24,689 bases of DNA from Candidatus Limnocylindrales bacterium. GTDB taxonomy: Bacteria; Chloroflexota; Limnocylindria; Limnocylindrales; CSP1-4. Made by a program: the position numbers and the translations under genes. This document shows, piece after piece, positions 3,790-23,835 of the stretch (its first letter is position 1; each line of letters opens with the position of its first letter). The stretch is from the NCBI GenBank assembly GCA_046716225.1, contig JBKJXL010000028.1, forward strand, positions 1-24,689, written 5' to 3'. The notes below the pieces were generated by a model that did no database searches, was not told the origin of the DNA, and saw only the letters and a list, made by a program, of their open reading frames with translations.

Positions 3790-6393
3790 TCACGAAGCCT
3801 CCCGCGCTGCGTCGTCAATCCGGTCGCGCAGCAGCATGGCGCTCGCGGCGATGAGATCGACCATCCGTCCCCGATCGATGGGGCGTTCGACCGCGGCCAT
3901 GTCGCGGACCCAGCGCAGCGTCCCATCGATGACGTCGAGGATGACCCCCGCCTCATCCACGCTGAAGAGCGGGCGATCCTGGACGTCGACATAGACCGGC
4001 GACGTGTGGGACGCCATGCTCGAGTTGAAGGCCGAGTGGATCTCGTGCGCGCTCCGCGACCGCGCCGCGATCCACGATCCAGCCCGGATGTCGACGAACG
4101 TCTCAATGCTCAGGTCGTCGGACGGTGTCGGGGATTCGCGCACCGCGACGACTTGCCCGTTGATCACGATCTCCACGGCGCTGATCAGGGGCTGCGCAGC
4201 ACGGACTCGAACGTGGGCCTCGAGACGCCCGCCCGATGCTGGGAGCGTCAGGACATCGCCGGGACCATGGCCGTCGACCGATAGTTCGATGACCGGCCCG
4301 GAGGTGGCGAACGTTCGGCCGGCCCGGACAGCGGCCGACCACGAATCGAATGTCGGCGGAGCGTCGCGATCCAGGCGGGCATACGTGCGGACCGCACCGA
4401 CGGGCACCTCGGCGGACATCTTGTCAGTCCCGCCGAGCACCGGGAGCCGGTAGCCACAATTGAGAAAGCGGTACCACTCTAGGATGGACGGATTGTCGAG
4501 GCCCGGCGCGAAACACTGCATCTCGACCGCGTCGATCCGGCCGGTCACGATGTCGGTGGCGATCTCCGCGTACGGCAGCGGGAAGTGCGCGGCGACGACC
4601 AACCCGCCCTGGGCATGACACTGGTCCGCCCAGTCGGCCAGCAGCTCCGTGAGGGCTCCGCCGATCCTTCCCTCGGGGCCGCCGCCGGCGGCCATGGTCA
4701 GGACGGGCCGGCGCGCCCCGAGCAGCCCGACATGGCCCAGCATGTTCTGGCGGTTCTCGGTTCCCACGATGACCGCGTGACGCCCGCTCGGATCGGTCGT
4801 CGAGCCCCAGGGAAGGTCGTTGACCGTCGAGAACTGATCGCCCCACTGCGTGGCGAGGAGATGGACGAACGCGACGTCCTCAGCGGCGGCCTGCAGAAGG
4901 GCGGTGGATGGAGCGAGGAAGTGGACGTGCGAATCTGCGGTCAGCCAGCCCTCTGGGCCCAGGTCGATCGGGCGCCCGAGCGGGACGTCGAAGCGACGCG
5001 TCCCCGGGTCGACGACCAGCGTGGTCCGCACGGGTCGATGATCGAACCCCTTGACGACCTCGATCTGGACCGAACCCACCGGCAGGTCGATCTCGAAGGT
5101 GCCCGGGACATAGGCGTAGATATCGCCACCAAGCAGCAGGTCGGTGCCCGTGTCCTCGTAGATGCCCGGGTTGACCTCGTCGCGGTGACCGAGCGGGGGG
5201 AGATAGCGCCCATCGGCTGCCAGGAACCGGACTCTCGCCGGCGTCGGCTCGCCCGTCGGACCATCGGTCACGGTGACCTCGACCCGGACGTCGAGGGGAG
5301 CCATCGGCAGGATGGCGAGCTTTCCGTCCGGGCTGACACGCCGCTCCCCGAGACGTGCGGCGGGAACGTCCCAGGCGCCGAACCGCAGCGTCGCGTCGGG
5401 CGCCAGCGCCACGTCGAGGACGGCCCGCGTCGCCTCGGCGTCGGGTCCGTGGCGATCGCCCGGTGTCGCCGGCCGGCCCCAACCGATCAGTCCGCTCGGC
5501 TCCACCGGCCCCATCGGTTGTTCGACTGGCCGCGACCTGATCGCGATCCCCAGATCCACGGTGGGCAGCCCGCCGCCGAACCCTTCCACGAGGATCTGCC
5601 GGCGAGGTCCGGCGATGAGCGGGCTCGCAGAGCCATTGAACAGGGTGACCGCCGCCACGACGACGTCTGTGCCGGGCCGCCCGCCCCCGAGCGGGGCAAG
5701 CCGCAGCTCGACGAGCTCCGTGGCGTGGTCGAGCGGGATGGCGTGAAGCCAATAGGTGGCGTCGTCGTCCGCGGTGGGAACGAAATCGGCTACGCCGGTC
5801 TGGGCCGGCCCCCACGCGCCCGGCAGCATCGTCAACGGCCCGGCGTGCCCTGCCGCGGCATAGCGGCCTGGTCCCTGGCGTGGGTGCGGACCGCGCCAAT
5901 CGACGACCTCATCGGGACGGTGGCCGACGGCAGCGAAGGGGAGAAAGCCCCAGCCGATGATCCCGTCGTTGATCTCCGACCTGCGCCGCACGTCGAGCAC
6001 CTGGGTTCGGCCATCGGCACCGACCAACTCGTACCGCGCAAGGGATTCCCCGGCCGACAGAACCCAGCCGACCGGCGCACCCGATGGCCTCGCACCGGCC
6101 GGATCCCGCCAGCTGTCGCTGAAATGCGCGACGACCACGTGGCTGGCCGGCCCATGGCCACGCAGGTCGATCGTGATCTCGCGATCGAGAAGAATCCAGC
6201 GCCGAGCGATCGATCGGCGCCCAAGGCTGAACGGAATGCCCCGGAAGACCTGGTCGCCTTCCGGGAGGCGTTCGATCGCCTGGCGATAGTGTGGGTGGAA
6301 TCGCTCGGCGACGTCCGCATCGGAGGCATTCCAGCTGTCCGCCAGCACGATCGGGCGGGCCAGGGGAGTTGCCGGGGCCGCGGTGACGTTCAC
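3790..6393 (-). CDS. CehA/McbA-family metallohydrolase (C-terminal PHP-like domain, long unassigned N-terminus), 867 aa
   Basis: WLTADSHVH (HxH), GTENRQNMLGH, VAAHF and GYRLPVLGGTDKM in the C-terminal half, followed by the GRTFATSGP...LSVDG beta-rich tail typical of these proteins. No signal peptide evident. Start GTG uncertain. Confidence 0.7.
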   Translation of the reverse strand: MNVTAAPATPLARPIVLADSWNASDADVAERFHPHYRQAIERLPEGDQVFRGIPFSLGRRSIARRWILLDREITIDLRGHGPASHVVVAHFSDSWRDPAGARPSGAPVGWVLSAGESLARYELVGADGRTQVLDVRRRSEINDGIIGWGFLPFAAVGHRPDEVVDWRGPHPRQGPGRYAAAGHAGPLTMLPGAWGPAQTGVADFVPTADDDATYWLHAIPLDHATELVELRLAPLGGGRPGTDVVVAAVTLFNGSASPLIAGPRRQILVEGFGGGLPTVDLGIAIRSRPVEQPMGPVEPSGLIGWGRPATPGDRHGPDAEATRAVLDVALAPDATLRFGAWDVPAARLGERRVSPDGKLAILPMAPLDVRVEVTVTDGPTGEPTPARVRFLAADGRYLPPLGHRDEVNPGIYEDTGTDLLLGGDIYAYVPGTFEIDLPVGSVQIEVVKGFDHRPVRTTLVVDPGTRRFDVPLGRPIDLGPEGWLTADSHVHFLAPSTALLQAAAEDVAFVHLLATQWGDQFSTVNDLPWGSTTDPSGRHAVIVGTENRQNMLGHVGLLGARRPVLTMAAGGGPEGRIGGALTELLADWADQCHAQGGLVVAAHFPLPYAEIATDIVTGRIDAVEMQCFAPGLDNPSILEWYRFLNCGYRLPVLGGTDKMSAEVPVGAVRTYARLDRDAPPTFDSWSAAVRAGRTFATSGPVIELSVDGHGPGDVLTLPASGGRLEAHVRVRAAQPLISAVEIVINGQVVAVRESPTPSDDLSIETFVDIRAGSWIAARSRSAHEIHSAFNSSMASHTSPVYVDVQDRPLFSVDEAGVILDVIDGTLRWVRDMAAVERPIDRGRMVDLIAASAMLLRDRIDDAAREAS

Positions 6394-6439: not shown

Positions 6440-6458
6440 CCTGCAATCGGTTGCGCAA
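6430..6458 (-). promoter_or_regulatory. Divergent sigma70-like promoter for the metallohydrolase-iolH-iolG operon
   Basis: Minus strand TTGCGC (6458-6453), 17-nt spacer, TAGCAT (6435-6430); overlapped by the operator. Confidence 0.55.
6442..6457. promoter_or_regulatory. LacI-type operator, copy 1 (TGCAATCGGTTGCGCA)
   Basis: Near-palindrome with central CG fitting TGNAANCGNTTNCA. The 15-bp core recurs at 11112-11126 and 23813-23827; a LacI gene lies in the cluster. Confidence 0.85.
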
Positions 6459-6472
6459 GTCGGAGGGATTCG

Positions 6473-8353
6473 ATGAGGTCGGTTCGACTGACGACTGGCC
6501 AGGCCATCATCCGCTTCATGGCCCAACAGTACGTGGAGCGCGACGAACGTCAGCAACGCTTCATCGCGGGCGTGTGGGGCATCTTCGGGCACGGTAACGT
6601 CGCCGGCCTCGGACAGGCGCTCGAGGAACTCGGCGACGCCGAGGAGATGCCCTACTACCGGCCCCAGAACGAACAGGGACAAGTGCACATCGCGGCCGCC
6701 TATGCGAAGCACCGGAACCGCCTGCAGACCTTCGCGTGCACGTCGTCGATCGGTCCCGGTGCCACCAACATGGTCACGGGCGCTGCCAGCGCGACGGTCA
6801 ACCGTATCCCCGTGCTGCTGCTTCCAAGTGACTACTTCGCCAACCGCGTCTCCGACCCGGTGCTCCAGCAGATCGAGCACCCCGCTGAGCACGATGTCAG
6901 TGCGAGCGACGCGTTCCGTCCTGTGTCACGGTTCTTCGATCGGATCTCACGGCCGGAGCAACTGATCGCGAGCCTGCCTGAGGCGTTCCGTGTCCTGACC
7001 GACCCGGTCGAGACCGGTGCGGTGACGGTGACACTTCCCGAGGACGTTCAGTCCGAGGCGTTCGACTGGCCCGAGCGCTTCTTTGAGCGCCGTGTCTGGC
7101 GAGTCCGCCGGCCCGTTCCGGAGCCGGCGGTCGTGGCGGACGTCGTTCGGTTGCTGACCGAGGCGGAGGCGCCCCTGATCATCACCGGTGGCGGGACGAT
7201 CTATGCCGAGGCCACCCGCGAACTGGACGCGTTCGCATCGCGGTTCGGGATCCCTGTCGCCGAGACCCAGGCCGGCAAAGGCGCCCTCTCGTGGAACAAG
7301 CCGATGAACGCCGGGCCGATCGGTGCGAACGGCGGCCTGGCCGCCAATCGGCTGGCGCGTGACGCGGACCTGATCCTGTGCCTGGGCACCCGGATGGGCG
7401 ACTTCGTGACCTCGTCACGCACCATGTTCCAGAATCCCCGCGCCCTGTTCGTCGGCATCAATGTCGCTCCCATGGACGCCCACAAGTTGCGGGCGTTCCC
7501 GCTCGTGGCGGACGCTCGCGAGGCTATCACCGCGATTTCAGCCGCGCTCGAGACCGCCGGCTACCGTGGGACGTCGGACGCCTATCAACAACGGATCGGC
7601 CAGCTCAAGACCGACTGGGACGCGATCGTCGCGGGACTCCGCACCGTCAACGGAGAACCAGGGGATCTTGGGCAGGCCGAGGTCATCGGCATCGTGAACG
7701 ACACCGTGGGCGGGAATGCCACGGTGATCTGCGCTGCTGGAAGTCTCCCCGGCGATCTGCTCAAGCTCTGGCGAGCTGAAGACTCCAAGGCCTATCACGT
7801 CGAGTACGGCTACTCCTGCATGGGCTACGAGGTCGCCGCCGGGCTGGGTGTGGCGCTCGCGGAACCCGGGCGTCGGGTCGTGGTCATGGTCGGAGACGGT
7901 TCCTACCTGATGCTGAACTCGGAGATCGTGACCGCGGTGGCCGAGGGTCTGAAGTTCACGATCGTCCTGCTGGACAACCACGGCTTCCAGTGCATCACCG
8001 GCCTCGCGCGATCGGTCGGCGTGCCGGATTTCGGGAACGACCTTCGCTTCCGCGACAAGGGACGCAACCGCCTGACCGGGCCGTATGTTCCGATCGACTT
8101 CCGCCAGCATGCGGAGGCGATGGGCGCTCTGGCGATCTTCGCCGCCACCGCGGACGAGCTGAAGGCTGCTCTGGAACGGGCCGATCAGGCCGACCGGGTC
8201 ACCGTGATCGTCGTGCCCACCGAGCCCGAGAAGCGCGTCCCCGGATTCGAGGGTTGGTGGGAAGTTCCCGCGGCGGAGGTGAGTGGTCAGGCGGGCGTCC
8301 GGGCCGCGCGCGACGCGTACGACAAGGCGCGCACCATGCAGCGGCTCGGGTGA
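6473..8353 (+). CDS. iolD: 3D-(3,5/4)-trihydroxycyclohexane-1,2-dione acylhydrolase (ThDP-dependent), copy 1, 626 aa
   Basis: RLTTGQA..F, GIFGHGNVAGLGQAL, NEQ, TSSIGPGATNMVT, AAGSLPGDL, HVEYGYSCMGYE, GDGSYLM..N. Confidence 0.92.
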   Translation: MRSVRLTTGQAIIRFMAQQYVERDERQQRFIAGVWGIFGHGNVAGLGQALEELGDAEEMPYYRPQNEQGQVHIAAAYAKHRNRLQTFACTSSIGPGATNMVTGAASATVNRIPVLLLPSDYFANRVSDPVLQQIEHPAEHDVSASDAFRPVSRFFDRISRPEQLIASLPEAFRVLTDPVETGAVTVTLPEDVQSEAFDWPERFFERRVWRVRRPVPEPAVVADVVRLLTEAEAPLIITGGGTIYAEATRELDAFASRFGIPVAETQAGKGALSWNKPMNAGPIGANGGLAANRLARDADLILCLGTRMGDFVTSSRTMFQNPRALFVGINVAPMDAHKLRAFPLVADAREAITAISAALETAGYRGTSDAYQQRIGQLKTDWDAIVAGLRTVNGEPGDLGQAEVIGIVNDTVGGNATVICAAGSLPGDLLKLWRAEDSKAYHVEYGYSCMGYEVAAGLGVALAEPGRRVVVMVGDGSYLMLNSEIVTAVAEGLKFTIVLLDNHGFQCITGLARSVGVPDFGNDLRFRDKGRNRLTGPYVPIDFRQHAEAMGALAIFAATADELKAALERADQADRVTVIVVPTEPEKRVPGFEGWWEVPAAEVSGQAGVRAARDAYDKARTMQRLG

Positions 8354-9243
8354 CCAAGGAGGGCGCTCCTTCGCCGTGCGCCGAGCTCGAGGCGCATGCG
8401 CGCCTCGGTCGCTGGCTCGTCATGAGCACCGTTGCAGGAAGCGGCGCCGGCCACGTCGGCGGACCTCTGTCGGCGATGGACATCTGGGTGGCCCTGTTCT
8501 TCCGGGTGTTGAGGATCCGTCCGGAGGAACCCGATTGGGCCGACCGCGACCGCTTCATCCTGTCGAAGGGTCACTCGGCGGTCGGGCTGTACGCGGTCAT
8601 GGCTCAGCGTGGCTACTTCCCGGTTGCCGAGTTGGCGACGTTCGACAGGGGCGACTCTCGATTGCAGGGCCACCCGGACATGACCCGCCTGCCCGGGCTC
8701 GACGCGTCCACCGGATCGCTCGGGCAGGGCCTGGCGGTGGGTGTCGGAATCGCGCTCGGCGCGAAACTCCGTGGCCGCGGCTTCGGCACGTTCGTGATGC
8801 TCGGTGACGGCGAATGCCAGGAGGGCATGGTCTGGGAGTCCGTTCAGGTCGCGGCCAGGTACGGCCTCGGCAACCTGACCGCGATCGTGGATCATAACGG
8901 CCTGCAGCAGTACGGCTGGCCGCTCGGAAACGACCCAAACCCTCGTGGCGACCGAAATGAGCCGTGGCCCGGAAGCAAGCTCCGCGACGTCTTTGAAGCG
9001 TTCGGCTGGCACGTGCTCGAGATCGATGGGCACGACTTCGACGAGATCGTACGCGCGTGTGCGGCGGCCCGCGAGGCAGCATCGGGCAGTCAGCCGACGG
9101 CGATTCTGGCCCGAACGATCAAGGGCCGAGGACTCTCCTTCACGGAGGGGCGCCACGCCTGGCACGCCCGGATCCCCACGCCCGACGAGCTCGAGACTGC
9201 CCGTGTCGAACTGGGCATCGATGCCTCTGGTCAGACCCGATGA
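8350..9243 (+). CDS. Split transketolase, N-terminal (ThDP-binding) subunit, about 297 aa
   Basis: GHVGG, DRDRFILSKGH, LQGHPD, STGSLGQG, GDGECQEG..N motifs; GTG start overlaps the iolD stop (GTGA). Confidence 0.9.
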   Translation: MTKEGAPSPCAELEAHARLGRWLVMSTVAGSGAGHVGGPLSAMDIWVALFFRVLRIRPEEPDWADRDRFILSKGHSAVGLYAVMAQRGYFPVAELATFDRGDSRLQGHPDMTRLPGLDASTGSLGQGLAVGVGIALGAKLRGRGFGTFVMLGDGECQEGMVWESVQVAARYGLGNLTAIVDHNGLQQYGWPLGNDPNPRGDRNEPWPGSKLRDVFEAFGWHVLEIDGHDFDEIVRACAAAREAASGSQPTAILARTIKGRGLSFTEGRHAWHARIPTPDELETARVELGIDASGQTR

Positions 9244-10184
9244 GGTCCCAACGTGAAACCTGGGGCGACACGCTGGCTGAGCTCGGCACGACGAATCCCG
9301 ACATCGTCGTGCTCGACGGGGACCTGGCCAACTCGACCAAAGCGGATATCTTCGCCAGGGCCCACCCGGAGCGCTTCCTCGAGATGGGGATTGCGGAACA
9401 GAACATGGTTGGTGTCGCGGTCGGCCTGGCAACCCTGGGTTTCGTCCCGTGGTTGTCCTCGTTCGCGGTCTTTCTGACCCATCGCTCGCTCGACCAGATT
9501 CGCATGCTCGTCGCCCAGCCGGGGGCGAACGTCAAGATCGGCGCCGCGTACGCCGGTCTGCTCACCGGGCTGACCGGGAAGACCCATCAGGACGTCCAGG
9601 ATCTGGCGAACATGCGGGCCATGCCCGGCATGACGGTGCTCGCGCCCGGTGACGAGGTCGAGTGTGCCGCGATGACCCGCTGGGCGACCGAGTTCACTGG
9701 CCCCGTCTACCTGCGCCTGACTCGCGATCCCACCCCGCCGCTGTTCGATGATTCGTACCGATTCGAACCGGGCCGAGTTCATCAACTGCGCGATGGGCGC
9801 GACGCCCTGCTGATCTCGACCGGTCCGCAGACCGGGCGCTGCATCGAAGCGGCTGCGCTGCTCGAGGCCACCGGCCTGTCCGTCGGGGTCCTCCATGTGC
9901 CGTCGATCAAGCCGATCGACGAGGCCGCCGTTGTGCGAGCCGCCCGTGGGTCGGATCTGCTCGTCACCGTTGAGGAACACAACGTCATCGGCGGGCTTGG
10001 CGGCCTGGTCGCGGAGATTCTCACGACGCGCTTGCCCAGGCGCCTCGTCCGGATTGGGATGGAGGACTCTTGGGGTGAGTCGGCGCCGAACGACTTCCTG
10101 CTCGAGAAGCACGGTCTGTCGGCGTCACGTGTCGCCGAGCGGGTGCTCGTCGAACTCAGGGTCGTTGTCGAGGAGAAGTCGTGA
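9240..10184 (+). CDS. Split transketolase, C-terminal (pyrimidine-binding plus C-terminal) subunit, 314 aa
   Basis: DGDLANST, FLEMGIAEQNMVG, THQ, MRAMPGM, GPVYLRL, TVEEHNVIGGLG; ATGA overlap with the upstream subunit. Confidence 0.9.
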   Translation: MRSQRETWGDTLAELGTTNPDIVVLDGDLANSTKADIFARAHPERFLEMGIAEQNMVGVAVGLATLGFVPWLSSFAVFLTHRSLDQIRMLVAQPGANVKIGAAYAGLLTGLTGKTHQDVQDLANMRAMPGMTVLAPGDEVECAAMTRWATEFTGPVYLRLTRDPTPPLFDDSYRFEPGRVHQLRDGRDALLISTGPQTGRCIEAAALLEATGLSVGVLHVPSIKPIDEAAVVRAARGSDLLVTVEEHNVIGGLGGLVAEILTTRLPRRLVRIGMEDSWGESAPNDFLLEKHGLSASRVAERVLVELRVVVEEKS

Positions 10185-11023
10185 ACAGAGAGCCGATCCG
10201 TCATCTCGCCTCGGGACCCGGGACCGGTACGGTCCTGGAGATCACCCCGGAGTCGATCGGATGGAAGTACATCAGCTCCAGCGTGGTGGCCCTTGGCGCG
10301 GGTCGGCGACACGAAGGGGACACCGGGCTCAACGAGGTCGCGATCGTCCCGCTTGTCGGGACCGCCGTCTTCGAATTCGCGGGGCAGACCCACACGGTCT
10401 CGCGCCGCGACGTCTTCACCGAGATGCCGCACGTGGCCTACCTGCCACCTCGGACGGCCTACACGATCACAGCGGTCGAGGCGTTTGAGTTCGCGTCGGG
10501 CGGCGTACCGGCCGAAGGGCGCCTCCCGGCGCGGCTCTTCACACCCGATGAGCTGCCGAGCTCGCTCCGCGGCGGCGTGAATGTCAGCCGCGGCGTGACC
10601 GGGACCCTCGACCTGAGTCTCCCGGCGGAACGCCTGCTCGCCTACGAGATCGTGACCCCGAGCGGGAACTGGTCGAGCTTTCCACCTCACCGCCATGACG
10701 GCACGAACGGGACCACCTATCACGAGGAGACGTACTACTTCCGACTCCAGCCTCGTGACGGCTTCGCGATCCAGCGGATTTACTCGCCCGAGAGCGAGCT
10801 CGACCTGTCGTTCTGCGCGCGAGATGGTGATCTCATCCTTGTCCACGAGGGGTACCACACGGTGGCGACCGCTCCAGGGACCAACGCGTACTACCTCAAC
10901 TTCCTCGGTGGCGACGTTCGCCCGGTGAGCCAGTACATCGACCCAGCCTACGCGTGGGTGGCCCAGGACTGGGAAGGTAGACCAGTCGGGATCCCCGTCG
11001 GAGGTCGTCGGGCCGCGGACTGA
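10181..11023 (+). CDS. iolB: 5-deoxy-glucuronate isomerase, 280 aa
   Basis: GNWSSFPPHRHD, HEETYYFR, QRIYS, GYHTVATAPG..YYLNFL cupin motifs; GTGA overlap. Confidence 0.9.
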   Translation: MNREPIRHLASGPGTGTVLEITPESIGWKYISSSVVALGAGRRHEGDTGLNEVAIVPLVGTAVFEFAGQTHTVSRRDVFTEMPHVAYLPPRTAYTITAVEAFEFASGGVPAEGRLPARLFTPDELPSSLRGGVNVSRGVTGTLDLSLPAERLLAYEIVTPSGNWSSFPPHRHDGTNGTTYHEETYYFRLQPRDGFAIQRIYSPESELDLSFCARDGDLILVHEGYHTVATAPGTNAYYLNFLGGDVRPVSQYIDPAYAWVAQDWEGRPVGIPVGGRRAAD

Positions 11024-11077
11024 CGGCCGATCATCGGCCCGGACGATCTTCCCGAAAACATCGATGTTCCCGAAATG

Positions 11078-11106
11078 TTGACGGGCGTGAGGTCGGATGC
11101 TACCGT
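11078..11106 (+). promoter_or_regulatory. Sigma70-like promoter for the aminotransferase-lacI-ABC operon
   Basis: TTGACG (11078-11083), 17-nt spacer, extended -10 TGcTACCGT ending at 11106; nearly identical to the promoter at 6410. Confidence 0.7.
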
Positions 11107-11110
11107 CCCC

Positions 11111-11126
11111 TGCAATCGGTTGCGCA
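11111..11126. promoter_or_regulatory. LacI-type operator, copy 2 (TGCAATCGGTTGCGCA)
   Basis: Identical to copy 1; 4 nt downstream of the -10 box. Confidence 0.85.
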
Positions 11127-11143
11127 GCGGAGGAAGGGCACGC

Positions 11144-12376
11144 ATGCCAGGACCAGGTCTCGATCTGCTCGGGTCGGAGGAGCTGGCCGAGGTCGCCGAG
11201 GTTCTGGCGAGTGGCCACCTCGCGCGGTATGGTCCCGACGACGACTCCTTTCCAGCCAAGGTGCGTCGGTTCGAGGAGCTCGTCGCCGAGCTGTCCCGGA
11301 CGAAGTACGCCCTGGCTCTCAACTCCGGCACGAGCGGCCTGTTCCTGGCCCTCGTCGGGCTCGGGATCGGACCAGGGGACGAGGTCATCGTGCCCGGCTT
11401 CACGTTCGTCGCCACGATCAGCTCGGTCATCTACGCGCGTGCCCGGCCGGTCCTCGCCGAGATCGATGACTCATTCAACCTCGACCCAAGGGACGTCGAG
11501 ACGCGCATCACGCCGCGGACGCGGGCGATCATCGTCGTCCACATGCTGGGCAACCCGGGGCGACTCGATGAGCTCAAGGTGGTCGCGGCACGGCACGGCC
11601 TCGCGCTCATCGAGGACGCCGCACAGGCCTTTGGCGCCACCTATCGCGGTCGCTGGGTCGGCGGTCAGGCGGAGGCCGGGGTCTACAGCTTCAACGAGTT
11701 CAAGACCATCACCTGCGGCGATGGCGGGATGCTGGTCACGGACGACGAGGACCTCTACAGGCGCGCCTTCGCCATGCACGACCAGGGACACAGCCCCAAC
11801 CGGCGCGGGATCGAGGTCGGCAATCGACCCTTCCTCGGGCTCAATTTCCGGATGACCGAGTTGCAGGGCGCGGTGCTGCTTGCCCAGGTGCGCCGGCTCG
11901 ACCGGATCCGGGACCACCTGCGGGCGAATCGCGATCTGGTCAAGGGCATCATCGGGGAGATCCCGGGGGTCGGCTTTCGGACGCTTCCGGATCCGGCAGG
12001 AGACCTCGCCACGCACCTCGTCGTCCTCTTTCCGGACGCCTCGACGGCCCGCGCGGTGACCGCGGAGTTGGGATCGATCACCCTGGCGTCATCGGGCTGG
12101 CATGTGTACAACCACATGGAGCACGTGCTGAGCGAACGGACCATCACCGGGCGCGGCTGTCCCTTTGACTGCGCTTGCACGGATGACCAGCCGACCGGAT
12201 ACCGGCCCGGGATGCTGCCCGAGACTGATCGGCTGCTTGACCGGTCGATGAGCTTCTCGATCGGCGTCCAGGATCCGAACCTCGCGCCGTTCGGCCTGCG
12301 GATGCGTGACGGCGCGGACGTCGCCCGCGCTCGGGCGGAGCAATTCCGCGCTGTCGCGTCACGCGTCCTGGCCTAG
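11144..12376 (+). CDS. DegT/DnrJ/EryC1/StrS family PLP-dependent aminotransferase, 410 aa
   Basis: NSGTSGL, GDEVIVPGFTFVAT, IEDAAQA (PLP Asp), SFNEFKTITCGDGG (Schiff-base Lys), GLNFRMTE. ATG 11144 follows GGAGGAAGG. Confidence 0.92.
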   Translation: MPGPGLDLLGSEELAEVAEVLASGHLARYGPDDDSFPAKVRRFEELVAELSRTKYALALNSGTSGLFLALVGLGIGPGDEVIVPGFTFVATISSVIYARARPVLAEIDDSFNLDPRDVETRITPRTRAIIVVHMLGNPGRLDELKVVAARHGLALIEDAAQAFGATYRGRWVGGQAEAGVYSFNEFKTITCGDGGMLVTDDEDLYRRAFAMHDQGHSPNRRGIEVGNRPFLGLNFRMTELQGAVLLAQVRRLDRIRDHLRANRDLVKGIIGEIPGVGFRTLPDPAGDLATHLVVLFPDASTARAVTAELGSITLASSGWHVYNHMEHVLSERTITGRGCPFDCACTDDQPTGYRPGMLPETDRLLDRSMSFSIGVQDPNLAPFGLRMRDGADVARARAEQFRAVASRVLA

Positions 12377-12393: not shown

Positions 12394-13449
12394 ATGGCAG
12401 TCCGCGACGCCGCGCCGCATCGCCGGGTCGTCCTCGACGACGTCGCGCGGATGGCCAAGGTCTCGAGATCGACGGCGTCCCGCGCACTCGTTGACGATCC
12501 CCGGATCAGCGAGCCGACGCGCACCGCGGTTAAGCATGCCGCCAGCGAGCTCCAGTACGTTCCGAACGCGGCCGCTCGCAGCCTTCGTGCTCAACGGACC
12601 CGGATCCTCGGTCTCCTGCTGGCCAACTTGAGCGACCCGGTCCACGGGCAGATCGCCGCCGCGTTCGAGCAGGAGGCGGAGGCCGGCGGCTATCGGGTGA
12701 TCTTTGCCGCCGGCCTCCAGGACCCAGCGCTGGAGCGCAAGACCCTCAGCATCTTCACCGAACACGCGGCTGACGGAGTCGCGATGGTCTCCTGCGTCCT
12801 GGCTCCGAGCGAAGCCCGGGCGCGCGTTCGGCCCGACCGGCTGATCATCGTCCAGCCCGATCATCGCAGGGTGCAGCGGTACCGCGGCCCGCTCGTGCCC
12901 GGCGTGATCATGACTGACGACGCCAGCGGGGTCGAGGCGGTCGTCGATCACCTGGTGGCGACCGGTCACCGCGATATCGCCTACGTCGGAAGCGGCGCTC
13001 GCGCGTCGAGCACGGTGCATCGGGAAGCCGTCGGGCGAGCCCTCCAAAAGCATGGCATTCGTCCCCAGCTCGACCGCTTCCCGAGCCCGGACGACGCCTG
13101 GCGCGCTCCGGATGCCATCGCGACACTGATCGCCGCCGATCTGCCGGAGGCGCTGATCTGCTACGAGGACGTGCAGGCGCTCGCCCTGATGGACGCGTTG
13201 CGGCGCCTTGGCATCCAGACGCCCGACGATGTCGGCATCGTCGGCTTTGACGGAATCCTGTTCGCCGAGATGTCCAACCCACGCTTGACGACCGTGGCGA
13301 CCCCGCTGGCCGAGCTGGGGCGACTTGCGGCCTCGTCGCTGATCGGCGCCATCCAGACGGGGACGCTGCCCGAGGCCAGGGTCCTCCCAGTGCAGTTGGT
13401 CGTTCGCGAGAGCACGCGGTCGCGCGTCGCCCGGGAAGGCGAGGCGTAG
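12394..13449 (+). CDS. LacI family transcriptional regulator, 351 aa
   Basis: N-terminal HTH LDDVARMAKVSRSTASRAL, hinge YVPNAAARSL, C-terminal PDDVGIVGFDG..LTTV..LVVRES. Confidence 0.95.
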   Translation: MAVRDAAPHRRVVLDDVARMAKVSRSTASRALVDDPRISEPTRTAVKHAASELQYVPNAAARSLRAQRTRILGLLLANLSDPVHGQIAAAFEQEAEAGGYRVIFAAGLQDPALERKTLSIFTEHAADGVAMVSCVLAPSEARARVRPDRLIIVQPDHRRVQRYRGPLVPGVIMTDDASGVEAVVDHLVATGHRDIAYVGSGARASSTVHREAVGRALQKHGIRPQLDRFPSPDDAWRAPDAIATLIAADLPEALICYEDVQALALMDALRRLGIQTPDDVGIVGFDGILFAEMSNPRLTTVATPLAELGRLAASSLIGAIQTGTLPEARVLPVQLVVRESTRSRVAREGEA

Positions 13450-13452
13450 CGC

Positions 13453-14550
13453 GTGCCCGAGTCGCAACCCGCCATCGAGCTGATCGACGCGACCAAGCGC
13501 TACGGCGATGTCGTGGCACTCGACGGCGTCTCGCTCCAGATCGAACCGGGCGAGTTCTTCTGCCTCCTTGGACCGTCCGGCTGCGGGAAGACGACCACCC
13601 TCAACCTGATCGGTGGATTCCTCCCGCTGACGTCGGGCGAACTGCATATCGAGGGACGCCGGGTGAACGACCTGCCGCCCCACAAGCGCAACGTCAACAC
13701 GGTCTTCCAGAACTACGCCCTGTTCCCGCACATGAACGTCGCCCAGAACGTCGCGTTCGGGTTGCGAATGGCGGGCCTCGGCAAGGACGAGGTCGCCCGA
13801 CGGGTCGAGGAGTATCTGGACCTGGTCGGGCTGCTTGGCCACTCGGAGCGGTCACCGTCACAGCTCTCGGGCGGGCAGCAGCAGCGCGTCGCCCTGGCCC
13901 GTGCGCTGGCCAAACGGCCGGCGGTCCTCCTCCTCGACGAGCCGCTGGGCGCCCTCGACCTCAAGCTGCGTCACCAGATGCAGTTCGAGCTGGCCAGGAT
14001 CCACCGCCAGGTCGGGACGACCTTCGTGTTCGTGACACACGACCAGGAAGAGGCGCTCTCGATGTCCACCCGGATCGCCGTGATGTCGGGCGGCCGGGTC
14101 AGCCAGGTCGGCACCCCCCGCGAGATCTACTACAACCCCGTGGACCGCTTCGTGGCCGACTTCATCGGCGAATCGAACTTCCTCGCAGGTGCCGTCAGGC
14201 ACGAGGACGGCAGGCCCTGGTTCGTGCTCGAGAGCGGGGAGCGGATGCCCATCCCGGACGGGGCCGTGGAAGGACCGGCCACCGTGATGCTCCGGCCGGA
14301 ATCGCTCGTCGTGGGACCGGTCGGCAGCGCGCCCGGGCCGGCCATCACGGGCCGGATCCAGGGCATGGCGTTCATGGGCAATCACACGCGAGTCACAGTC
14401 AGCACGGCGGCGGGCGCCCTCGTCGTGCATCGACTCCACGGAGGCGGCGCAGGGCTTGGAGGTTCCGAGGGACAGATCGATGAGGAGGCATGCGTCTGGT
14501 GGTCACCCACGGAAGCGATCGTGATGGCAGAAACGGGAGCGAGGAGGTAA
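13453..14550 (+). CDS. ABC transporter ATP-binding protein, PotA/CysA type, 365 aa
   Basis: Walker A GPSGCGKT, VFQNYALFPHM, LSGGQQQRVALARAL, LLLDEP, FVTHDQEEAL, TOBE-like tail. Confidence 0.95.
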   Translation: MPESQPAIELIDATKRYGDVVALDGVSLQIEPGEFFCLLGPSGCGKTTTLNLIGGFLPLTSGELHIEGRRVNDLPPHKRNVNTVFQNYALFPHMNVAQNVAFGLRMAGLGKDEVARRVEEYLDLVGLLGHSERSPSQLSGGQQQRVALARALAKRPAVLLLDEPLGALDLKLRHQMQFELARIHRQVGTTFVFVTHDQEEALSMSTRIAVMSGGRVSQVGTPREIYYNPVDRFVADFIGESNFLAGAVRHEDGRPWFVLESGERMPIPDGAVEGPATVMLRPESLVVGPVGSAPGPAITGRIQGMAFMGNHTRVTVSTAAGALVVHRLHGGGAGLGGSEGQIDEEACVWWSPTEAIVMAETGARR

Positions 14551-14552
14551 CG

Positions 14553-15740
14553 ATGGATCCCATGGCTCGGAACAGGAACCTGACCCGGCGTCGTTTCCTG
14601 CAGGCGACGGCGGGAATCGGTGGTGTGGTCGCGTTCGGTGGCCTTGCGGCCGCGTGCTCGACCGGTGGCACCGGTACCAGTGCGGTGCCAGGTGCCAGCG
14701 CCGCGGCCGGCAGCAGCGCCGCGGCCGGCAGCAGCGCGGCGGCCGCGAGCCCAAAGGGCACCTTCAACTGGATGACCTGGAGCGATCACTACTACGAGGA
14801 GCAGCTCGCCGATATTGCGTCCACGAAGGAGATCAAGACCAGCGTCACCGAACTTGCCGACAACGCCGAAGGCTTCACCAAGGTCAAGGAGGTCGGCGGG
14901 CAGCTCGACATGATCTCGGGCGACGCGCTGTGGGTGCCGAAGTACTTCGAGGACGGGCTCATCGAGGCCTGGGACATCAACGAACTCCAGGTCGCGACGC
15001 AGCTCTACTCGATCGCTCGCGAGTTCGCCATCTGGACGAAGCCGGAGGGCTATCTCGGCTACCCGTTCGGGTGGTCGCCGGTCCAGCTCTACTACAACCC
15101 GAAGTTCGTCACCCCGACGCCCGACTCATGGGAGGTGCTGCTCGACCCCAAGTACAAGGGCCACATCGTCGTTGAGAACCAGCCCGTCGAGATCGTGGCC
15201 TACATGGCCAAGCTCGCCGGCGCGAAGGATCCGTACAACATGACCGCGGACGAGCTCGCCAAGGCGAGGGACCTGTTGACGCGCCTCAAGCCGAACCTCC
15301 TCAAGCTCACCCAGCAGAACACCGAGACGATCACCGCGCTGGTCAACGAGGAGGCCTGGATCGCAACCGGCAACCTGGGCGCCGAGGAACGGGTCAAGGA
15401 GGCCGGCGGACCCGAGGTGCTGGGCTTCACCCCGAAAGAGGGCACCGTCGGCTGGATGGACGCGGAGATGCTGGTCAAGGGCGGCAAGAACAACAACCTG
15501 CTCAAGCCCTTCCTGGAGGTCGCCGAGCAGGCGCCATACATCGCCGAGAACTTCATCAAGTACGGTCGCCCGCTGTTCAACGAAGCCGCCTACAAGCTGC
15601 TCGTCGACAAGGGCCAGAAGGACCGCGCCGACCGCTTCCTGTACAACAAGCCGGAGACGGTCCTGGCGATGACGCTCAAGGGCCCCGGGTCGTCGACCCA
15701 GGGCGCGATCGACGCCTTCAACGAGGTCTTCGGGGCCTAG
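14553..15740 (+). CDS. Tat-exported lipoprotein substrate-binding protein, PotD/PotF-like, 395 aa
   Basis: TRRRFL twin-arginine signal, LAAAC lipobox, WMTWSDHY, PDSWEVLLDPKYKG, PKEGTVGWMD; GAGGAGG SD before ATG 14553. Confidence 0.85.
   Translation: MDPMARNRNLTRRRFLQATAGIGGVVAFGGLAAACSTGGTGTSAVPGASAAAGSSAAAGSSAAAASPKGTFNWMTWSDHYYEEQLADIASTKEIKTSVTELADNAEGFTKVKEVGGQLDMISGDALWVPKYFEDGLIEAWDINELQVATQLYSIAREFAIWTKPEGYLGYPFGWSPVQLYYNPKFVTPTPDSWEVLLDPKYKGHIVVENQPVEIVAYMAKLAGAKDPYNMTADELAKARDLLTRLKPNLLKLTQQNTETITALVNEEAWIATGNLGAEERVKEAGGPEVLGFTPKEGTVGWMDAEMLVKGGKNNNLLKPFLEVAEQAPYIAENFIKYGRPLFNEAAYKLLVDKGQKDRADRFLYNKPETVLAMTLKGPGSSTQGAIDAFNEVFGA
14697..14750 (+). repeat. 18-bp tandem repeat, 2 exact copies plus 1 degenerate (SAAAGS linker)
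   Basis: AGCGCCGCGGCCGGCAGC at 14697 and 14715; AGCGCGGCGGCCGCGAGC at 14733. Confidence 0.85.
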
Positions 15741-15760
15741 CCGCCAAGTACACCCGCATC

Positions 15761-19552: not shown

Positions 19553-19589
19553 CGTCTTCGTCTCCGGGCCGCCGACCGCGCCCGGGCGT

Positions 19590-20390: not shown

Positions 20391-20404
20391 TCCCGGTCCG
20401 GTGA

Positions 20405-22321: not shown

Positions 22322-22337
22322 GCGGCGTGCCCTCCTG

Positions 22338-23759
22338 TCAAGTGGCTCCGTGAAGGATGATCGTCTTGGTCTCGGTCATCTCCTCGACGGCCCAGCGGGG
22401 TCCCTCCTTGCCGATCCCACTGCTCTTGAGACCGCCGTAGGGCATCAGGTCCGCCCGCCACAACGGCGTCCAGTTGATATGGACGCTGCCCGCGTCGACG
22501 TCGCGCGCGAATCGCAATGCGCTGGTCACGTCGCGCGTGAAGACGCCGGCCCCGAGTCCGTAGCGGCTGGCGTTGGCCAGCCGGATCGCCTCGTCGATCC
22601 CGGACGCCGTGGAGACGGCGACTGCCGGGCCGAACAGCTCCTCCTGGCTCAGCGAGCTGGCCGGGTCGACATCGGCCACGACGGCCGGCGAGAGCATGGT
22701 CCCATCGCGCTCGCCCCCGCACAGCACGCTGGCCCCGGACGCCACGCTCCCACGGATCGCCTGCTCCACCCGGCGTGCCTCGACTTCGCTGACCAGGACG
22801 CCCATCGTCGTCTGCGGATCGAGTGGGTCACCGGTCCGGATCGTCCTGACCAGCGGCGTCAGGGCGTCGAGGAAATCGCCGACGACGGCCTGGTCGACGA
22901 GCACGCGCTGGACCGAGATGCAGACCTGGCCTGCGTTGACATATCCGCCGATCGAGACGGCCCGAGCGGCGAGTTCGATGTCCGCGTCGGGCAGCACCAC
23001 CACCGGGCAGCTCGCCCCGAGCTCGAGGGAGAGCCGTTTGACGCCGGCGACCCGGGTGATCGCTTCGCCGGTGGCCGAGTTCCCGGTGAAGCTGATCTTG
23101 CGCACGCGCGGATCGCTGCACAGCAGCTCGCCCAGCTCCGCGCCCGGGCCCGTGACGCACGAGATCGCCTCGGGATCGAGGCCGGCATCGAGCAGGATCT
23201 GCGTGAGCTTAAGGGCCGTGAGGGGCGTCTTCCGGGCGGGCTTGAGAATGACCGCATTGCCCGCCGCGAGGGCGGGAGCGATCTTGTGGAGCACGAGGAG
23301 GGACGGGTAATTGAACGGCGTGATCGCCACGACGACGCCGCACGGCTGTCGAAGCGTGAAGCCGAGTCGCCCCTGGCCCGCGCCGCGATGCGCGTCGAGC
23401 GGGAGACTGTCGCCGTAGAGGTGAGCCCCCTCGAACGCAGCCAGGCGCAACATGTCGCCCGCCCTGGAGGCTTCGCCGGTCGCCTCCGTGAGGAGCTTGC
23501 CGGACTCGAGCGAGATCGTCCGGGCCAGGTCGTCGACCCGTTCGTCCGCGAGATCGGCGGCCCGCAGGAGGATCGCCTGCCGATCGTAGGCAGGGGTGTG
23601 GCGCTGTCGTTCGGCGCCCCTCACGGCGGCGGCGAGGGCCCGCTCGATGTCCGCACGGGATGCCACCGGCACAGTGTCGATCACGTCCCCGTTGAACGGG
23701 TTGACGACCTCCTCGCGGACTGCGCCGTCCATCCAGTCGCCGGCGATGAGCATGCGCAT
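22338..23759 (-). CDS. NAD(P)-dependent aldehyde dehydrogenase (lactaldehyde-DH/GapN-like, not IolA/MmsA type), 473 aa
   Basis: AITPFNYP, LKPARKTP, SFTGNS, LELGASCP (Glu), GQVCISVQR (Cys), EELFGP, PYGGLKSSGIGKEG. ATG 23759 follows GGAG. Confidence 0.9.
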   Translation of the reverse strand: MRMLIAGDWMDGAVREEVVNPFNGDVIDTVPVASRADIERALAAAVRGAERQRHTPAYDRQAILLRAADLADERVDDLARTISLESGKLLTEATGEASRAGDMLRLAAFEGAHLYGDSLPLDAHRGAGQGRLGFTLRQPCGVVVAITPFNYPSLLVLHKIAPALAAGNAVILKPARKTPLTALKLTQILLDAGLDPEAISCVTGPGAELGELLCSDPRVRKISFTGNSATGEAITRVAGVKRLSLELGASCPVVVLPDADIELAARAVSIGGYVNAGQVCISVQRVLVDQAVVGDFLDALTPLVRTIRTGDPLDPQTTMGVLVSEVEARRVEQAIRGSVASGASVLCGGERDGTMLSPAVVADVDPASSLSQEELFGPAVAVSTASGIDEAIRLANASRYGLGAGVFTRDVTSALRFARDVDAGSVHINWTPLWRADLMPYGGLKSSGIGKEGPRWAVEEMTETKTIILHGAT

Positions 23760-23805
23760 CGGTCTGGTCTCCGCGTCCCGATTCTGGGGTGTCGGCCGGG
23801 CGCGA

Positions 23806-23835
23806 TTGACCGTGCGCAACCGATTGCGCTAACCT
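23806..23835 (+). promoter_or_regulatory. Sigma70-like promoter for the iolE-like gene
   Basis: TTGACC (23806-23811), 18-nt spacer containing the operator, TAACCT (23830-23835). Confidence 0.6.
23813..23828. promoter_or_regulatory. LacI-type operator, copy 3 (minus strand CGCAATCGGTTGCGCA)
   Basis: Plus strand TGCGCAACCGATTGCG is the reverse complement of the same 15-bp core. Confidence 0.85.

What the first reader, a model, noticed from the sequence alone, without database searches (positions are those of the whole stretch)
9531..9590. Transketolase substrate-binding loop is rewritten
Seen: KIGAAYAGLLTGLTGKTHQ. Known (from recall): the canonical motif is TH(D/A)(S/G)I..GEDGPTHQ, where His461 binds phosphate and Asp469 the substrate hydroxyl in E. 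coli numbering. Here His appears as Tyr, Asp as Thr and Pro as Lys, while the flanking Arg/Ser positions (QRE, DLANST, LTRD) seem retained. Inference: a non-housekeeping enzyme adapted to a non-phosphorylated, possibly carboxylate, substrate.
Basis: partly seen in the sequence, partly recalled or inferred. Interest (0 to 1): 0.62.

Follow-up and report, generated by a model that had tools for sequence, protein, structure and literature searches.

The report
Remodelled transketolase inside an inositol operon
A two-part transketolase sitting between the inositol-breakdown genes iolD and iolB has a rebuilt substrate pocket that marks a whole conserved clade, and it most likely cuts the unphosphorylated six-carbon acid made by IolB, which would replace the textbook kinase and aldolase steps; no such route appears in the papers I could search.

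Summary
Window 9531-9590 encodes V98-Q117 of the C-terminal subunit of a split transketolase. Against real E. coli TktA, His461 is Tyr104, Glu468 is Leu111, Asp469 is Thr112 and Pro471 is Lys114. Arg358, Ser385, Glu411, His473 and Arg520 are kept.

This is not chance or error. All 120 closest database homologues keep the Tyr and Lys, and such sequences form one clade. Canonical split transketolases keep H..GEDG.[ST]HQ.

Four relatives carry a separate full-length transketolase, so this is an extra paralogue.

The gene lies in iolD-tktN-tktC-iolB, joined by 4-bp overlaps. Iol linkage recurs in Chloroflexota, Paenibacillus validus and another MAG. One 99%-complete genome has only tktN-tktC-iolG-iolB-iolD-iolG-iolE and no IolC. 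Among 401 genomes of the phylum, true IolC and this clade never co-occur.

Best reading (about 0.5): 5-dehydro-2-deoxy-D-gluconate is the ketol donor. The substrate is untested. Lys114 may pair with Asp99 rather than bind carboxylate. Three relatives also have an IolC-like kinase.

Earlier notes of this scan report iol-linked split transketolases on other DNA. No paper describing this was found.

The parts
6443..6457 (+). 15-nt candidate LacI operator just upstream of iolD1. Identical copies lie at 11112-11126 (+) and 23813-23827 (-).
   Evidence: Three exact matches against 0.06 expected by chance. That it is an operator is inferred.
6473..8353 (+). iolD1, the ThDP-dependent trihydroxycyclohexane-1,2-dione hydrolase, and the first gene of the operon
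   Evidence: TIGR04377 scores 880 bits against a cut-off of 715. Its TGA stop overlaps the tktN GTG start.
8350..9243 (+). tktN, the N-terminal (diphosphate-binding) subunit of the split transketolase. It keeps H26, H66, H100, D155, N185 and H261 equivalents. The clade-specific changes are D99 (E. coli R91; nt 8644-8646), Q187-Y188 (E. coli I189-D190; nt 8908-8913) and an insertion after them.
   Evidence: Pfam Transketolase_N. Best solved match is 6YAK, E 1e-73. E. coli mapping and clade comparison are.
9240..10184 (+). tktC, the C-terminal (pyrimidine-binding plus C domain) subunit of the split transketolase
   Evidence: Pfam Transket_pyr and Transketolase_C. Best solved match is 6YAJ, E 1e-85. 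ATGA overlap with tktN and GTGA overlap with iolB.
9531..9590 (+). The rewritten substrate loop, V98-Q117: Y104 (9549-9551), L111, T112 (9573-9575), K114 (9579-9581) and the retained H116 (9585-9587)
   Evidence: Conserved across the clade.
9252..9254 (+). R5, the equivalent of E. coli R358 (phosphate-site arginine), retained. S32 (9333-9335) is S385 and R162-D163 (9723-9728) is R520 plus a clade-specific Asp.
10181..11023 (+). iolB, the 5-deoxy-glucuronate isomerase that makes 5-dehydro-2-deoxy-D-gluconate, the proposed donor substrate
   Evidence: TIGR04378 scores 234 bits against a cut-off of 205
12394..13449 (+). LacI-family regulator, the presumed binder of the three operators
   Evidence: Pfam LacI and Peripla_BP_3. 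Its role is inferred.
22338..23819 (-). Aldehyde dehydrogenase, a candidate oxidiser of the 2-hydroxy-aldehyde acid that the transketolase would release. It sits behind the third operator copy.
   Evidence: Pfam Aldedh. The best NCBIfam model is lactaldehyde dehydrogenase (482 bits, below its cut-off), the same best model as for the ALDH inside the P. validus iol-TK cluster. The link to the transketolase is inferred.

Best explanation
tktN and tktC encode a catalytically competent, ThDP-dependent split transketolase. It belongs to a distinct catabolic clade whose substrate channel has been rebuilt in both subunits. In the C subunit His461 becomes Tyr, Glu468 becomes non-acidic, Asp469 becomes Thr and Pro471 becomes Lys. 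In the N subunit Arg91 becomes Asp and Ile189-Asp190 becomes Gln-Tyr, followed by an insertion.

In this operon the enzyme most likely takes the product of IolB, 5-dehydro-2-deoxy-D-gluconate (DKG). DKG is a 2-ketose with a free CH2OH next to the keto group, the D-threo configuration of xylulose and fructose, and a carboxylate where xylulose 5-phosphate carries its phosphate. The enzyme would move the two-carbon ketol unit (C6-C5) onto an aldehyde acceptor. Glyceraldehyde 3-phosphate is the probable acceptor, giving xylulose 5-phosphate. The other product would be (3R)-3-hydroxy-4-oxobutanoate, which an aldehyde dehydrogenase could oxidise to D-malate. This would bypass the IolC kinase and the IolJ aldolase.

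Shown here: the substitutions, their conservation as a clade, retention of all cofactor and catalytic residues, operon coupling, recurrence of the iol linkage, and non-overlap with true IolC. Inferred: the donor, the acceptor, the products, and which of the new residues touch the substrate.
For: 1. Cofactor and catalytic residues are intact: the H26, H66, H100, D155, N185, H261, E411 and H473 equivalents.
2. Two of the five residues listed as 'substrate binding and recognition' in PMC4601599 are replaced. Both replacements are invariant or nearly so in one clade.
3. The genes form iolD-tktN-tktC-iolB with GTGA, ATGA and GTGA overlaps behind a repeated operator.
4. The same linkage occurs in Paenibacillus validus (ALDH-iolG-iolD-tktN-tktC-iolB-iolE-like-ABC transporter), in MAG L002, and in Chloroflexota L001, L012, L111, L113 and L129.
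5. L113 lies in a 99%-complete, 2-contig genome. The operon there is only tktN-tktC-iolG-iolB-iolD-iolG-iolE, flanked by rpsB/tsf and unrelated genes. It holds the genome's only IolD, and no IolC is found (best kinase hit 119 bits against a cut-off of 300).
6. No IolC is found either in the same-genus G266 (93% complete), in G084 (97%) or in G002.
7. Among 401 genomes of the phylum, 81 have IolD. Of those, 25 have true IolC and 14 have this clade, with no overlap.
8. Relatives carry a separate full-length transketolase.
9. The stereochemistry of DKG fits transketolase donors (worked out from the D-gluconate configuration; my own reasoning).
10. D469T is a laboratory variant of the E. coli enzyme with raised activity on a non-natural aldehyde (PMC6310800).
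Against: - There is no biochemical evidence for any substrate.
- R358, S385 and R520 are all kept, and Tyr can hydrogen-bond phosphate, so a phosphorylated partner is not excluded. One is in fact expected if glyceraldehyde 3-phosphate is the acceptor.
- DKG keeps the hydroxyl that Asp469 normally binds, so loss of that Asp is not obviously required for DKG.
- K114 may be a structural partner of N-subunit D99 rather than a carboxylate ligand.
- Chloroflexota L001, L012 and L014 have an IolC-like kinase (258 bits, below cut-off). L012, the one annotated in detail, also has a LacD-type aldolase in the same cluster as the transketolase.
- P. validus has a second, canonical iolC-iolD locus.
- Most clade members (about 25 of 36 loci) are not next to iol genes. 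They sit with ALDH, GAPDH-like, SDR, Zn-ADH or transaldolase-like genes instead.
- 42 of the 81 IolD-bearing genomes have neither IolC nor this transketolase.
- The window's own genome is only 62% complete, so the absence of IolC there is uninformative.
Confidence: 0.5

Rival explanations
1. The enzyme is a specialised transketolase, but its donor is a different non-phosphorylated ketose or keto-acid from cyclitol, aminocyclitol or sugar-acid catabolism. Examples are a 5-keto-gluconate-type acid from an IolM/IolN-like branch, or an intermediate specific to the amino-cyclitol that the neighbouring DegT aminotransferase and amine-type ABC importer appear to feed in.
For: The window also encodes an IolM-like Zn dehydrogenase, a DegT aminotransferase, a PotD-like binding protein and a CehA-like hydrolase. 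Most clade members lie outside iol clusters, with ALDH, SDR, GAPDH-like or transaldolase-like genes. Loss of Asp469 would suit a substrate lacking, or differing at, the hydroxyl that Asp469 binds (PMC6310800).
Against: The minimal L113 operon holds only IolG, IolE, IolD, IolB and the transketolase. The direct iolD-tkt-iolB coupling here and in P. validus points to the IolB product.
Confidence: 0.2
2. The enzyme still works on phosphorylated sugars, either ordinary donors such as xylulose-5-P or fructose-6-P with an unusual aldehyde acceptor, or a special phosphorylated ketose. On this reading it serves to connect inositol-derived carbon to the pentose phosphate pathway rather than to replace IolC and IolJ.
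For: The R358, S385 and R520 equivalents are invariant. An IolC-like kinase and an aldolase sit in the same cluster in L012, and the kinase also in L001 and L014. P. validus keeps a canonical IolC locus.
Against: The IolC product is phosphorylated on the very CH2OH a transketolase donor needs free, so it cannot be the donor (established transketolase chemistry). True IolC and the clade never co-occur in 401 genomes. Several iol-TK genomes have no IolC. A housekeeping transketolase is already present in relatives.
Confidence: 0.2
3. It is an ordinary housekeeping split transketolase, its loop differences are neutral drift, and it merely happens to lie in an inositol operon.
For: The overall best family matches are generic transketolase models. 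No other transketolase was found in the window's own genome, which is 62% complete.
Against: Fifty-nine canonical split transketolase loci and the solved 6YAJ/6YAK enzyme keep H461, D469, R91 and I189. The changes are fixed across a clade and coupled between subunits. Four relatives have a separate full-length transketolase. The clade is patchy, present in 33 of 401 genomes of the phylum.
Confidence: 0.05

Closest known systems
Split transketolase of Carboxydothermus hydrogenoformans (PDB 6YAJ / 6YAK)
   Same: The same two-gene architecture, and the best solved match for both subunits (E 1e-85 and 1e-73). All cofactor and catalytic residues are shared.
   Different: 6YAJ/6YAK keeps H461, E468, D469, R91, I189 and D190. 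The window enzyme has Y, L, T, D, Q and Y at those positions, plus K at 471 and an insertion of about 11 residues after the NGLQ metal motif.
E. coli TktA and its engineered variants (D469T, D469T/R520Q, S385Y/D469T/R520Q)
   Same: The natural clade carries the same D469->T change that directed evolution selected for higher activity on a non-natural, non-phosphorylated aldehyde (PMC6310800).
   Different: The natural enzyme keeps R520 and S385. It also changes H461, E468, P471 and the N-domain partner R91, which the laboratory variants do not.
Substrate-specialised split transketolases SqwGH (6-deoxy-6-sulfofructose) and AptAB (apulose 4-phosphate), recalled from my own knowledge of Liu et al. 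2021 and Carter et al. 2018
   Same: Each is an extra transketolase paralogue encoded in a catabolic operon that cleaves an unusual ketose, with an anionic group other than a terminal phosphate in the SqwGH case.
   Different: Their operons are not iol operons.
Canonical myo-inositol lower pathway (Bacillus subtilis type: IolC kinase, IolJ aldolase, IolA)
   Same: The upstream steps are the same (IolG, IolE-like, IolD, IolB are present), and so is the intermediate DKG.
   Different: The window has no IolC, IolJ or IolA-type gene. A transketolase sits between iolD and iolB instead. The proposed products are xylulose-5-P plus a C4 hydroxy-aldehyde acid, rather than DHAP plus malonate semialdehyde (inferred).

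Membership tests
Transketolase family (ThDP-dependent; Pfam Transketolase_N, Transket_pyr, Transketolase_C) | Three-domain architecture, here split over two adjacent genes | tested here: met
   PF00456 at 3e-49 on tktN. PF02779 at 8e-38 and PF02780 at 7e-25 on tktC.
Transketolase family | ThDP and metal binding: GDG...N motif (D155, N185) and the pyrimidine-activating Glu411 | tested here: met
   D153, N183 and E53 align to E. coli D155, N185 and E411
Transketolase family | Catalytic histidines H26, H66, H100, H261 and H473 | tested here: met
   H35, H75, H108 and H272 in tktN, and H116 in tktC
Canonical (sugar-phosphate) transketolase, EC 2.2.1.1 | Substrate-recognition set R358, S385, H461, D469 and R520 (PMC4601599) | tested here: not met
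   R5, S32 and R162 are kept, but H461 is Y104 and D469 is T112. The D469 partner R91 is D99.
Canonical (sugar-phosphate) transketolase, EC 2.2.1.1 | Score above the curated cut-off of an NCBIfam transketolase equivalog | tested here: inconclusive
   NF004559 scores 261 bits on tktN and 254 bits on tktC, against a cut-off of 488 set for a full-length protein. Each half is below the cut-off, and the two halves cannot be scored together.
Housekeeping role | Being the only transketolase of the genome | tested here: not met
   Relatives G001, G003, G004 and G005 each have an additional full-length transketolase of about 700 aa scoring about 490 bits. The window's own genome is 62% complete and shows no other copy, which is uninformative.
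Y..G..GK[TS]H clade of split transketolases (defined here) | Y at position 461, non-Asp at 469 and K at 471 in the C subunit, with D at 91 and Q at 189 in the N subunit | tested here: met
   The clade is monophyletic in two FastTree trees.
Canonical iol lower pathway | IolC 5-dehydro-2-deoxygluconokinase present (TIGR04382 at or above 300 bits) | tested here: not met
   None in the window. The best hit in the window's own genome is 128 bits (genome 62% complete). None was found in G266, G084, G292 or G002.
Specialised transketolases SqwGH / AptAB | Sequence membership or a shared loop motif | not testable with these tools
   No sequences or family models were reachable

The most novel reading that the evidence does not exclude
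This clade is a carboxylate-recognising transketolase, a DKG:glyceraldehyde-3-phosphate glycolaldehyde-transferase. It would define an ATP-independent, aldolase-free lower branch of inositol catabolism that yields xylulose 5-phosphate and D-malate. The branch would be present in Chloroflexota, in some Bacillota and in other phyla, and it would be an alternative to IolC/IolJ in genomes that have IolD and IolB but no kinase.
Probability: 0.45. Interest if true: 0.75.

Novelty: new variant of a known kind. Interest (0 to 1): 0.65.

Why it matters
Inositol catabolism is a textbook pathway, and its lower half (IolC, IolJ, IolA) is taken as universal in genome surveys. In the phylum sampled here, only 25 of 81 IolD-bearing genomes have a true IolC, so most of them finish the pathway in some other way. 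A transketolase that accepts a sugar acid would be a new substrate class for a heavily studied and engineered enzyme. It would also supply natural active-site solutions (Y461, T469, K471, D91, Q189) for work on non-phosphorylated substrates. Annotation of iol clusters and of the many 'transketolase family protein' genes would need correcting. The idea can be tested directly, because Paenibacillus validus NBRC 15382 is cultured and carries the same gene order.

Tried and rejected
I used genome collections instead.
- The Arthrobacter plasmid record was not in the plasmid collection.
Paper searches gave no sequences or motifs, and NCBIfam has no model for either.
- Ten full-text searches found no paper linking a transketolase to iolD, iolB or DKG. 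The 2026 Dysosmobacter paper proposes the phosphorylated route. Subscription journals were not searched.
- I made no structure prediction or docking. The active site lies between the N subunit of one pair and the C subunit of the other, and the tools return no coordinates, so a model would not show whether K114 faces the substrate or D99.
- I considered 'the transketolase always replaces IolC/IolJ' and rejected it as a general rule, because L001, L012 and L014 carry an IolC-like kinase beside it and L012 also an aldolase.
- I considered 'the whole clade is inositol-specific' and rejected it, because most members lie in other sugar-acid-like clusters.
- Absence of IolC and of a second transketolase in the window's own genome is not usable at 62% completeness.
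Full report
**What is at the coordinates**

The window has 68% G+C. It is contig C28 of a 2.16-Mb, 62%-complete MAG, and its close relatives are Chloroflexota. ORF 9240-10184 (+) encodes a 314-aa protein with Transket_pyr and Transketolase_C domains. The ORF ending at 9243 encodes the Transketolase_N half.

The best solved relatives are the two chains of the Carboxydothermus hydrogenoformans split transketolase: 6YAJ at E 1e-85 and 6YAK at E 1e-73. 6YAJ reads KIAATHAGLTVGEDGASHQ at this place.

**Numbering checked on the real E. coli protein**

I took tktA from E. coli K-12 (NC_000913.3) and aligned it together with several clade and canonical sequences.

| E. coli TktA | Window enzyme | Status |
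|---|---|---|
| R358 | R5 (C subunit) | kept |
| S385 | S32 | kept |
| E411 | E53 | kept |
| H461 | Y104 | changed |
| E468 | L111 | changed |
| D469 | T112 | changed |
| P471 | K114 | changed |
| H473 | H116 | kept |
| R520 | R162 | kept |
| H26 | H35 (N subunit, numbered from the GTG at 8350) | kept |
| H66 | H75 | kept |
| H100 | H108 | kept |
| D155 | D153 | kept |
| N185 | N183 | kept |
| H261 | H272 | kept |

PMC4601599 lists His28, His263, Ser384, Arg357, Arg520, His461 and Asp469 as the residues for substrate binding and recognition. The enzyme therefore keeps everything needed for ThDP chemistry but has lost two of the classical substrate-recognition residues.

**The rewrite is a clade character and extends to the other subunit**

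- All 120 nearest homologues in the 5.8-billion-protein collection (68-100% identity) keep the Tyr, the Lys and the following [TS]-H. Position 112 is Thr in nearly all, with rare Ala or Ser.
- In a search of 1.84 billion cluster representatives, sequences down to about 50% identity keep Y...GK[TS]H.
- In 80 genome loci, those at 51% identity or above, plus one at 43%, carry Tyr at 461 and a non-Asp at 469, nearly all with the Lys as well. Almost all the rest read H..GEDG.[ST]HQ.
- Two FastTree trees place the Tyr/Lys sequences in one clade among many other non-canonical split-transketolase clades. 'Rewritten loops' as such are therefore common among split paralogues, but this version is specific to one clade.

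Comparing 29 clade loci with 59 canonical loci gives further fixed differences:

| Subunit | Position (E. coli) | Canonical | This clade |
|---|---|---|---|
| C | window Q93 | Y | Q |
| C | 521 (window D163) | L | D |
| N | 90-91 | L-R | F-D |
| N | 189-190 | I-D | Q-Y/F/W |
| N | after 191 | no insertion | insertion of 6-11 residues |

PMC6310800 reports that in E. coli, D469 salt-bridges R91 and H100. It also reports that the engineered D469T variant has five-fold higher activity on propionaldehyde. In my loci, D at position 91 goes with K at 471 in about 31 of 35 cases. The sister sequences with A at 471 have G at 91. One subclade of five loci has M at 471. The Lys may therefore be the new partner of the relocated Asp rather than, or as well as, a carboxylate ligand.

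**It is not the housekeeping enzyme**

Four relatives that carry the clade also have a full-length transketolase of about 700 aa scoring about 490 bits. These are three Chloroflexota and Paenibacillus validus. The clade is patchy, present in 33 of 401 genomes of the phylum and in 10 of 23 genomes of the window's own family. No second transketolase turned up in the window's own genome, but at 62% completeness that says nothing.

**Context in the window**

| Coordinates | Strand | Gene |
|---|---|---|
| about 878-1950 | - | luciferase-like oxidoreductase |
| 1891-3018 | - | IolG-like dehydrogenase |
| 2919-3730 | - | TIM-barrel protein |
| 3790-6393 | - | 867-aa protein with no Pfam match; its L012 homologue matches the CehA/McbA metallohydrolase model |
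| 6473-8353 | + | iolD1 |
| 8350-9243 | + | tktN |
| 9240-10184 | + | tktC |
| 10181-11023 | + | iolB |
| about 11075-12376 | + | DegT-type aminotransferase |
| 12394-13449 | + | LacI |
| 13453-17522 | + | PotA/PotD-like ABC importer |
| 17522-18526 | + | IolM-like Zn dehydrogenase |
| 18557-23819 | - | 2-hydroxyacid dehydrogenase, HpcH aldolase, iolD2, ALDH |
| 23920 to window end | + | IolE-like TIM barrel |

The iolD1/tktN, tktN/tktC and tktC/iolB junctions are GTGA, ATGA and GTGA overlaps. A 15-nt sequence occurs three times exactly, at 6443, 11112 and 23813 (-), against 0.06 expected. This fits one LacI regulon. No PfkB kinase, class II aldolase or IolA-type dehydrogenase lies in the window.

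**Context elsewhere**

The iol linkage recurs in these loci:

- **Paenibacillus validus NBRC 15382 (54% identity):** ALDH-iolG-iolD-tktN-tktC-iolB-iolE-like-ABC transporter-iolG-LacI.
- **MAG L002 (61%):** iolD-TIM-..-tktN-tktC-iolG-iolB.
- **Chloroflexota L111, L113 and L129**.
- **L113** is the most telling. It lies in a 99%-complete, 2-contig genome. The operon is only tktN-tktC-iolG-iolB-iolD-iolG-iolE, flanked by rpsB/tsf/pyrH/frr on one side and unrelated genes on the other. It contains the genome's only IolD. The best IolC-model hit in that genome is 119 bits against a cut-off of 300.

No IolC was found either in same-genus G266 (93% complete), in G084 (97%) or in G002.

Across the 401 genomes sampled from the phylum:

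| Group | Genomes |
|---|---|
| IolD present | 81 |
| True IolC present (all of them IolD-positive) | 25 |
| This transketolase clade present | 33 |
| Clade present and IolD-positive | 14 |
| Clade and true IolC together | 0 |
| IolD-positive with neither | 42 |

The naive hypergeometric probability of zero overlap is 0.003, and the odds ratio for the clade against IolD is 3.3. Related genomes are not independent, so both figures overstate the case. One of the 14 genomes, G232, is flagged unpublished.

**What cuts against a simple replacement story**

- L001, L012 and L014 (70-73% identity to the window protein) have an IolC-like kinase scoring about 258 bits, below the cut-off. L012, which I annotated in detail, reads iolD-DegT-IolC-like kinase-iolB-LacD-type aldolase-TIM-LacI-tktN-tktC-iolG.
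- P. validus has a second iolD next to a true iolC elsewhere in its genome.
- About 25 of 36 clade loci are not iol-linked. An Arthrobacter plasmid has MFS-IclR-tktNC-SDR-ALDH(SSADH-like)-GAPDH-like. The tight subclade that includes L117, which carries M at position 471, lies outside iol clusters. L117, the member I annotated, shows the gene order transaldolase-like, IolA-type CoA-acylating dehydrogenase, cupin, transketolase, GntR.
- 42 of the 81 IolD-bearing genomes have neither IolC nor this clade.

**Mechanistic reading**

IolB turns 5-deoxy-glucuronate into DKG, which is HOCH2-CO-CHOH-CHOH-CH2-COO-. Read from the keto end, C4 and C3 have the same D-threo configuration as C3 and C4 of xylulose and fructose. 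I derived this from the Fischer projection of D-gluconate. The CH2OH next to the keto group is free, so DKG is a formally competent transketolase donor. The IolC product is phosphorylated on that CH2OH and is not.

The DKG carboxylate carbon sits where xylulose-5-P has its ester oxygen. Retaining R358, S385 and R520 while losing two acidic residues (E468, D469) and gaining a Lys is consistent with binding a shorter anion, but does not prove it.

Cleavage would leave OHC-CHOH-CH2-COO- with the D (R) configuration, and oxidising that gives D-malate. The window ALDH and the ALDH inside the P. validus cluster share the same best NCBIfam model, lactaldehyde dehydrogenase, which acts on a 2-hydroxy-aldehyde. 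Every step after 'the transketolase is a remodelled, catabolic paralogue tied to iol genes' is inference.

**Literature**

Ten full-text searches found no paper placing a transketolase in inositol catabolism. The 2026 Dysosmobacter study proposes the phosphorylated route. Subscription journals were not covered.

Earlier notes of this scan report iol operons with split transketolases in several other genomes, among them Clostridia, Anaerolineae and other Chloroflexota. I treated those as leads only. My own small Clostridia sample (17 of 300 genomes IolD-positive) found one locus (L144) with a different split transketolase a few kb from iolB. Its loop reads SDPGITAAFNGGTHM, which again lacks H461 and D469. 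A second locus (L146) has a similar N subunit at the edge of the fetched stretch.

**Verdict**

The 'non-housekeeping' claim is solid. The 'non-phosphorylated carboxylate substrate' is the best-supported reading, with DKG at about 0.5, but it is untested. I class this as a new variant of a known kind, the substrate-specialised transketolase paralogues, with the prospect of an undescribed lower branch of a textbook pathway.

Noticed in passing
window 8350-9243 (tktN): D99 at 8644-8646, Q187-Y188 at 8908-8913: The N-terminal subunit carries clade-fixed changes at E. coli R91 (to D) and I189-D190 (to Q-Y), plus an insertion of about 11 residues after the NGLQ metal motif. R91 is the published salt-bridge partner of D469.
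   Followed up: yes
window 18557-23819 (-): A second module runs ALDH-iolD2-HpcH/GarL-like aldolase-D-2-hydroxyacid dehydrogenase behind the third operator copy. It may be another kinase-free way to dispose of the ring-opened product, for example oxidation followed by aldol cleavage.
   Followed up: partly
window 6443-6457, 11112-11126, 23813-23827(-): Three exact copies of GCAATCGGTTGCGCA lie upstream of iolD1, at the start of the aminotransferase unit, and upstream of the ALDH. This is a likely LacI operator set.
   Followed up: partly
window 3790-6393 (-): An 867-aa ORF with strong coding signal has no Pfam hit. Its 58%-identical homologue in L012 matches the CehA/McbA metallohydrolase model in its C-terminal half. 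It is conserved next to the transketolase and ABC genes in L001, L012 and L014.
   Followed up: partly
L012:3147-6021: Close Chloroflexota relatives carry an IolC-like kinase (258 bits, below cut-off) and a LacD-type class I aldolase between iolD and the transketolase. The kinase route and the transketolase can therefore coexist in one cluster.
   Followed up: partly
L117:5437-12716 (G258, own family): This locus belongs to a subclade that has Met instead of Lys at position 471 (also L122, L126; L115 with a variant motif). In L117 the transketolase sits with a transaldolase-like gene, an IolA-type CoA-acylating semialdehyde dehydrogenase (614 bits), a small cupin and two GntR regulators, with no iolD or iolB nearby.
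   Followed up: partly
L003:3821-15215 (Arthrobacter sp. UC242_113 plasmid): A clade member sits on a plasmid with an MFS transporter, two IclR regulators, SDRs, an SSADH-like ALDH and a long GAPDH-like gene. GAPDH-like genes also lie near L112 and L118.
   Followed up: partly
L144:14875-16604 and L146:19272-19880 (Clostridia): L144 has a different split-transketolase clade a few kb from iolD and iolB, with loop SDPGITAAFNGGTHM (H461 to D, D469 to N). This may be an independent loss of the same two residues in an iol setting. L146 shows a similar N subunit near iolD at the edge of the fetched stretch; its C subunit was not recovered.
   Followed up: no
phylum sample: 42 of 81 IolD-bearing genomes in the phylum have neither a true IolC nor this transketolase clade, so further ways of finishing the pathway are likely.
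   Followed up: no
L010:44-1006 (Paenibacillus validus): A second, 34%-identical split-transketolase C subunit lies about 9 kb upstream of the iol-TK cluster, next to a Gfo/Idh/MocA dehydrogenase and an MFS transporter.
   Followed up: no
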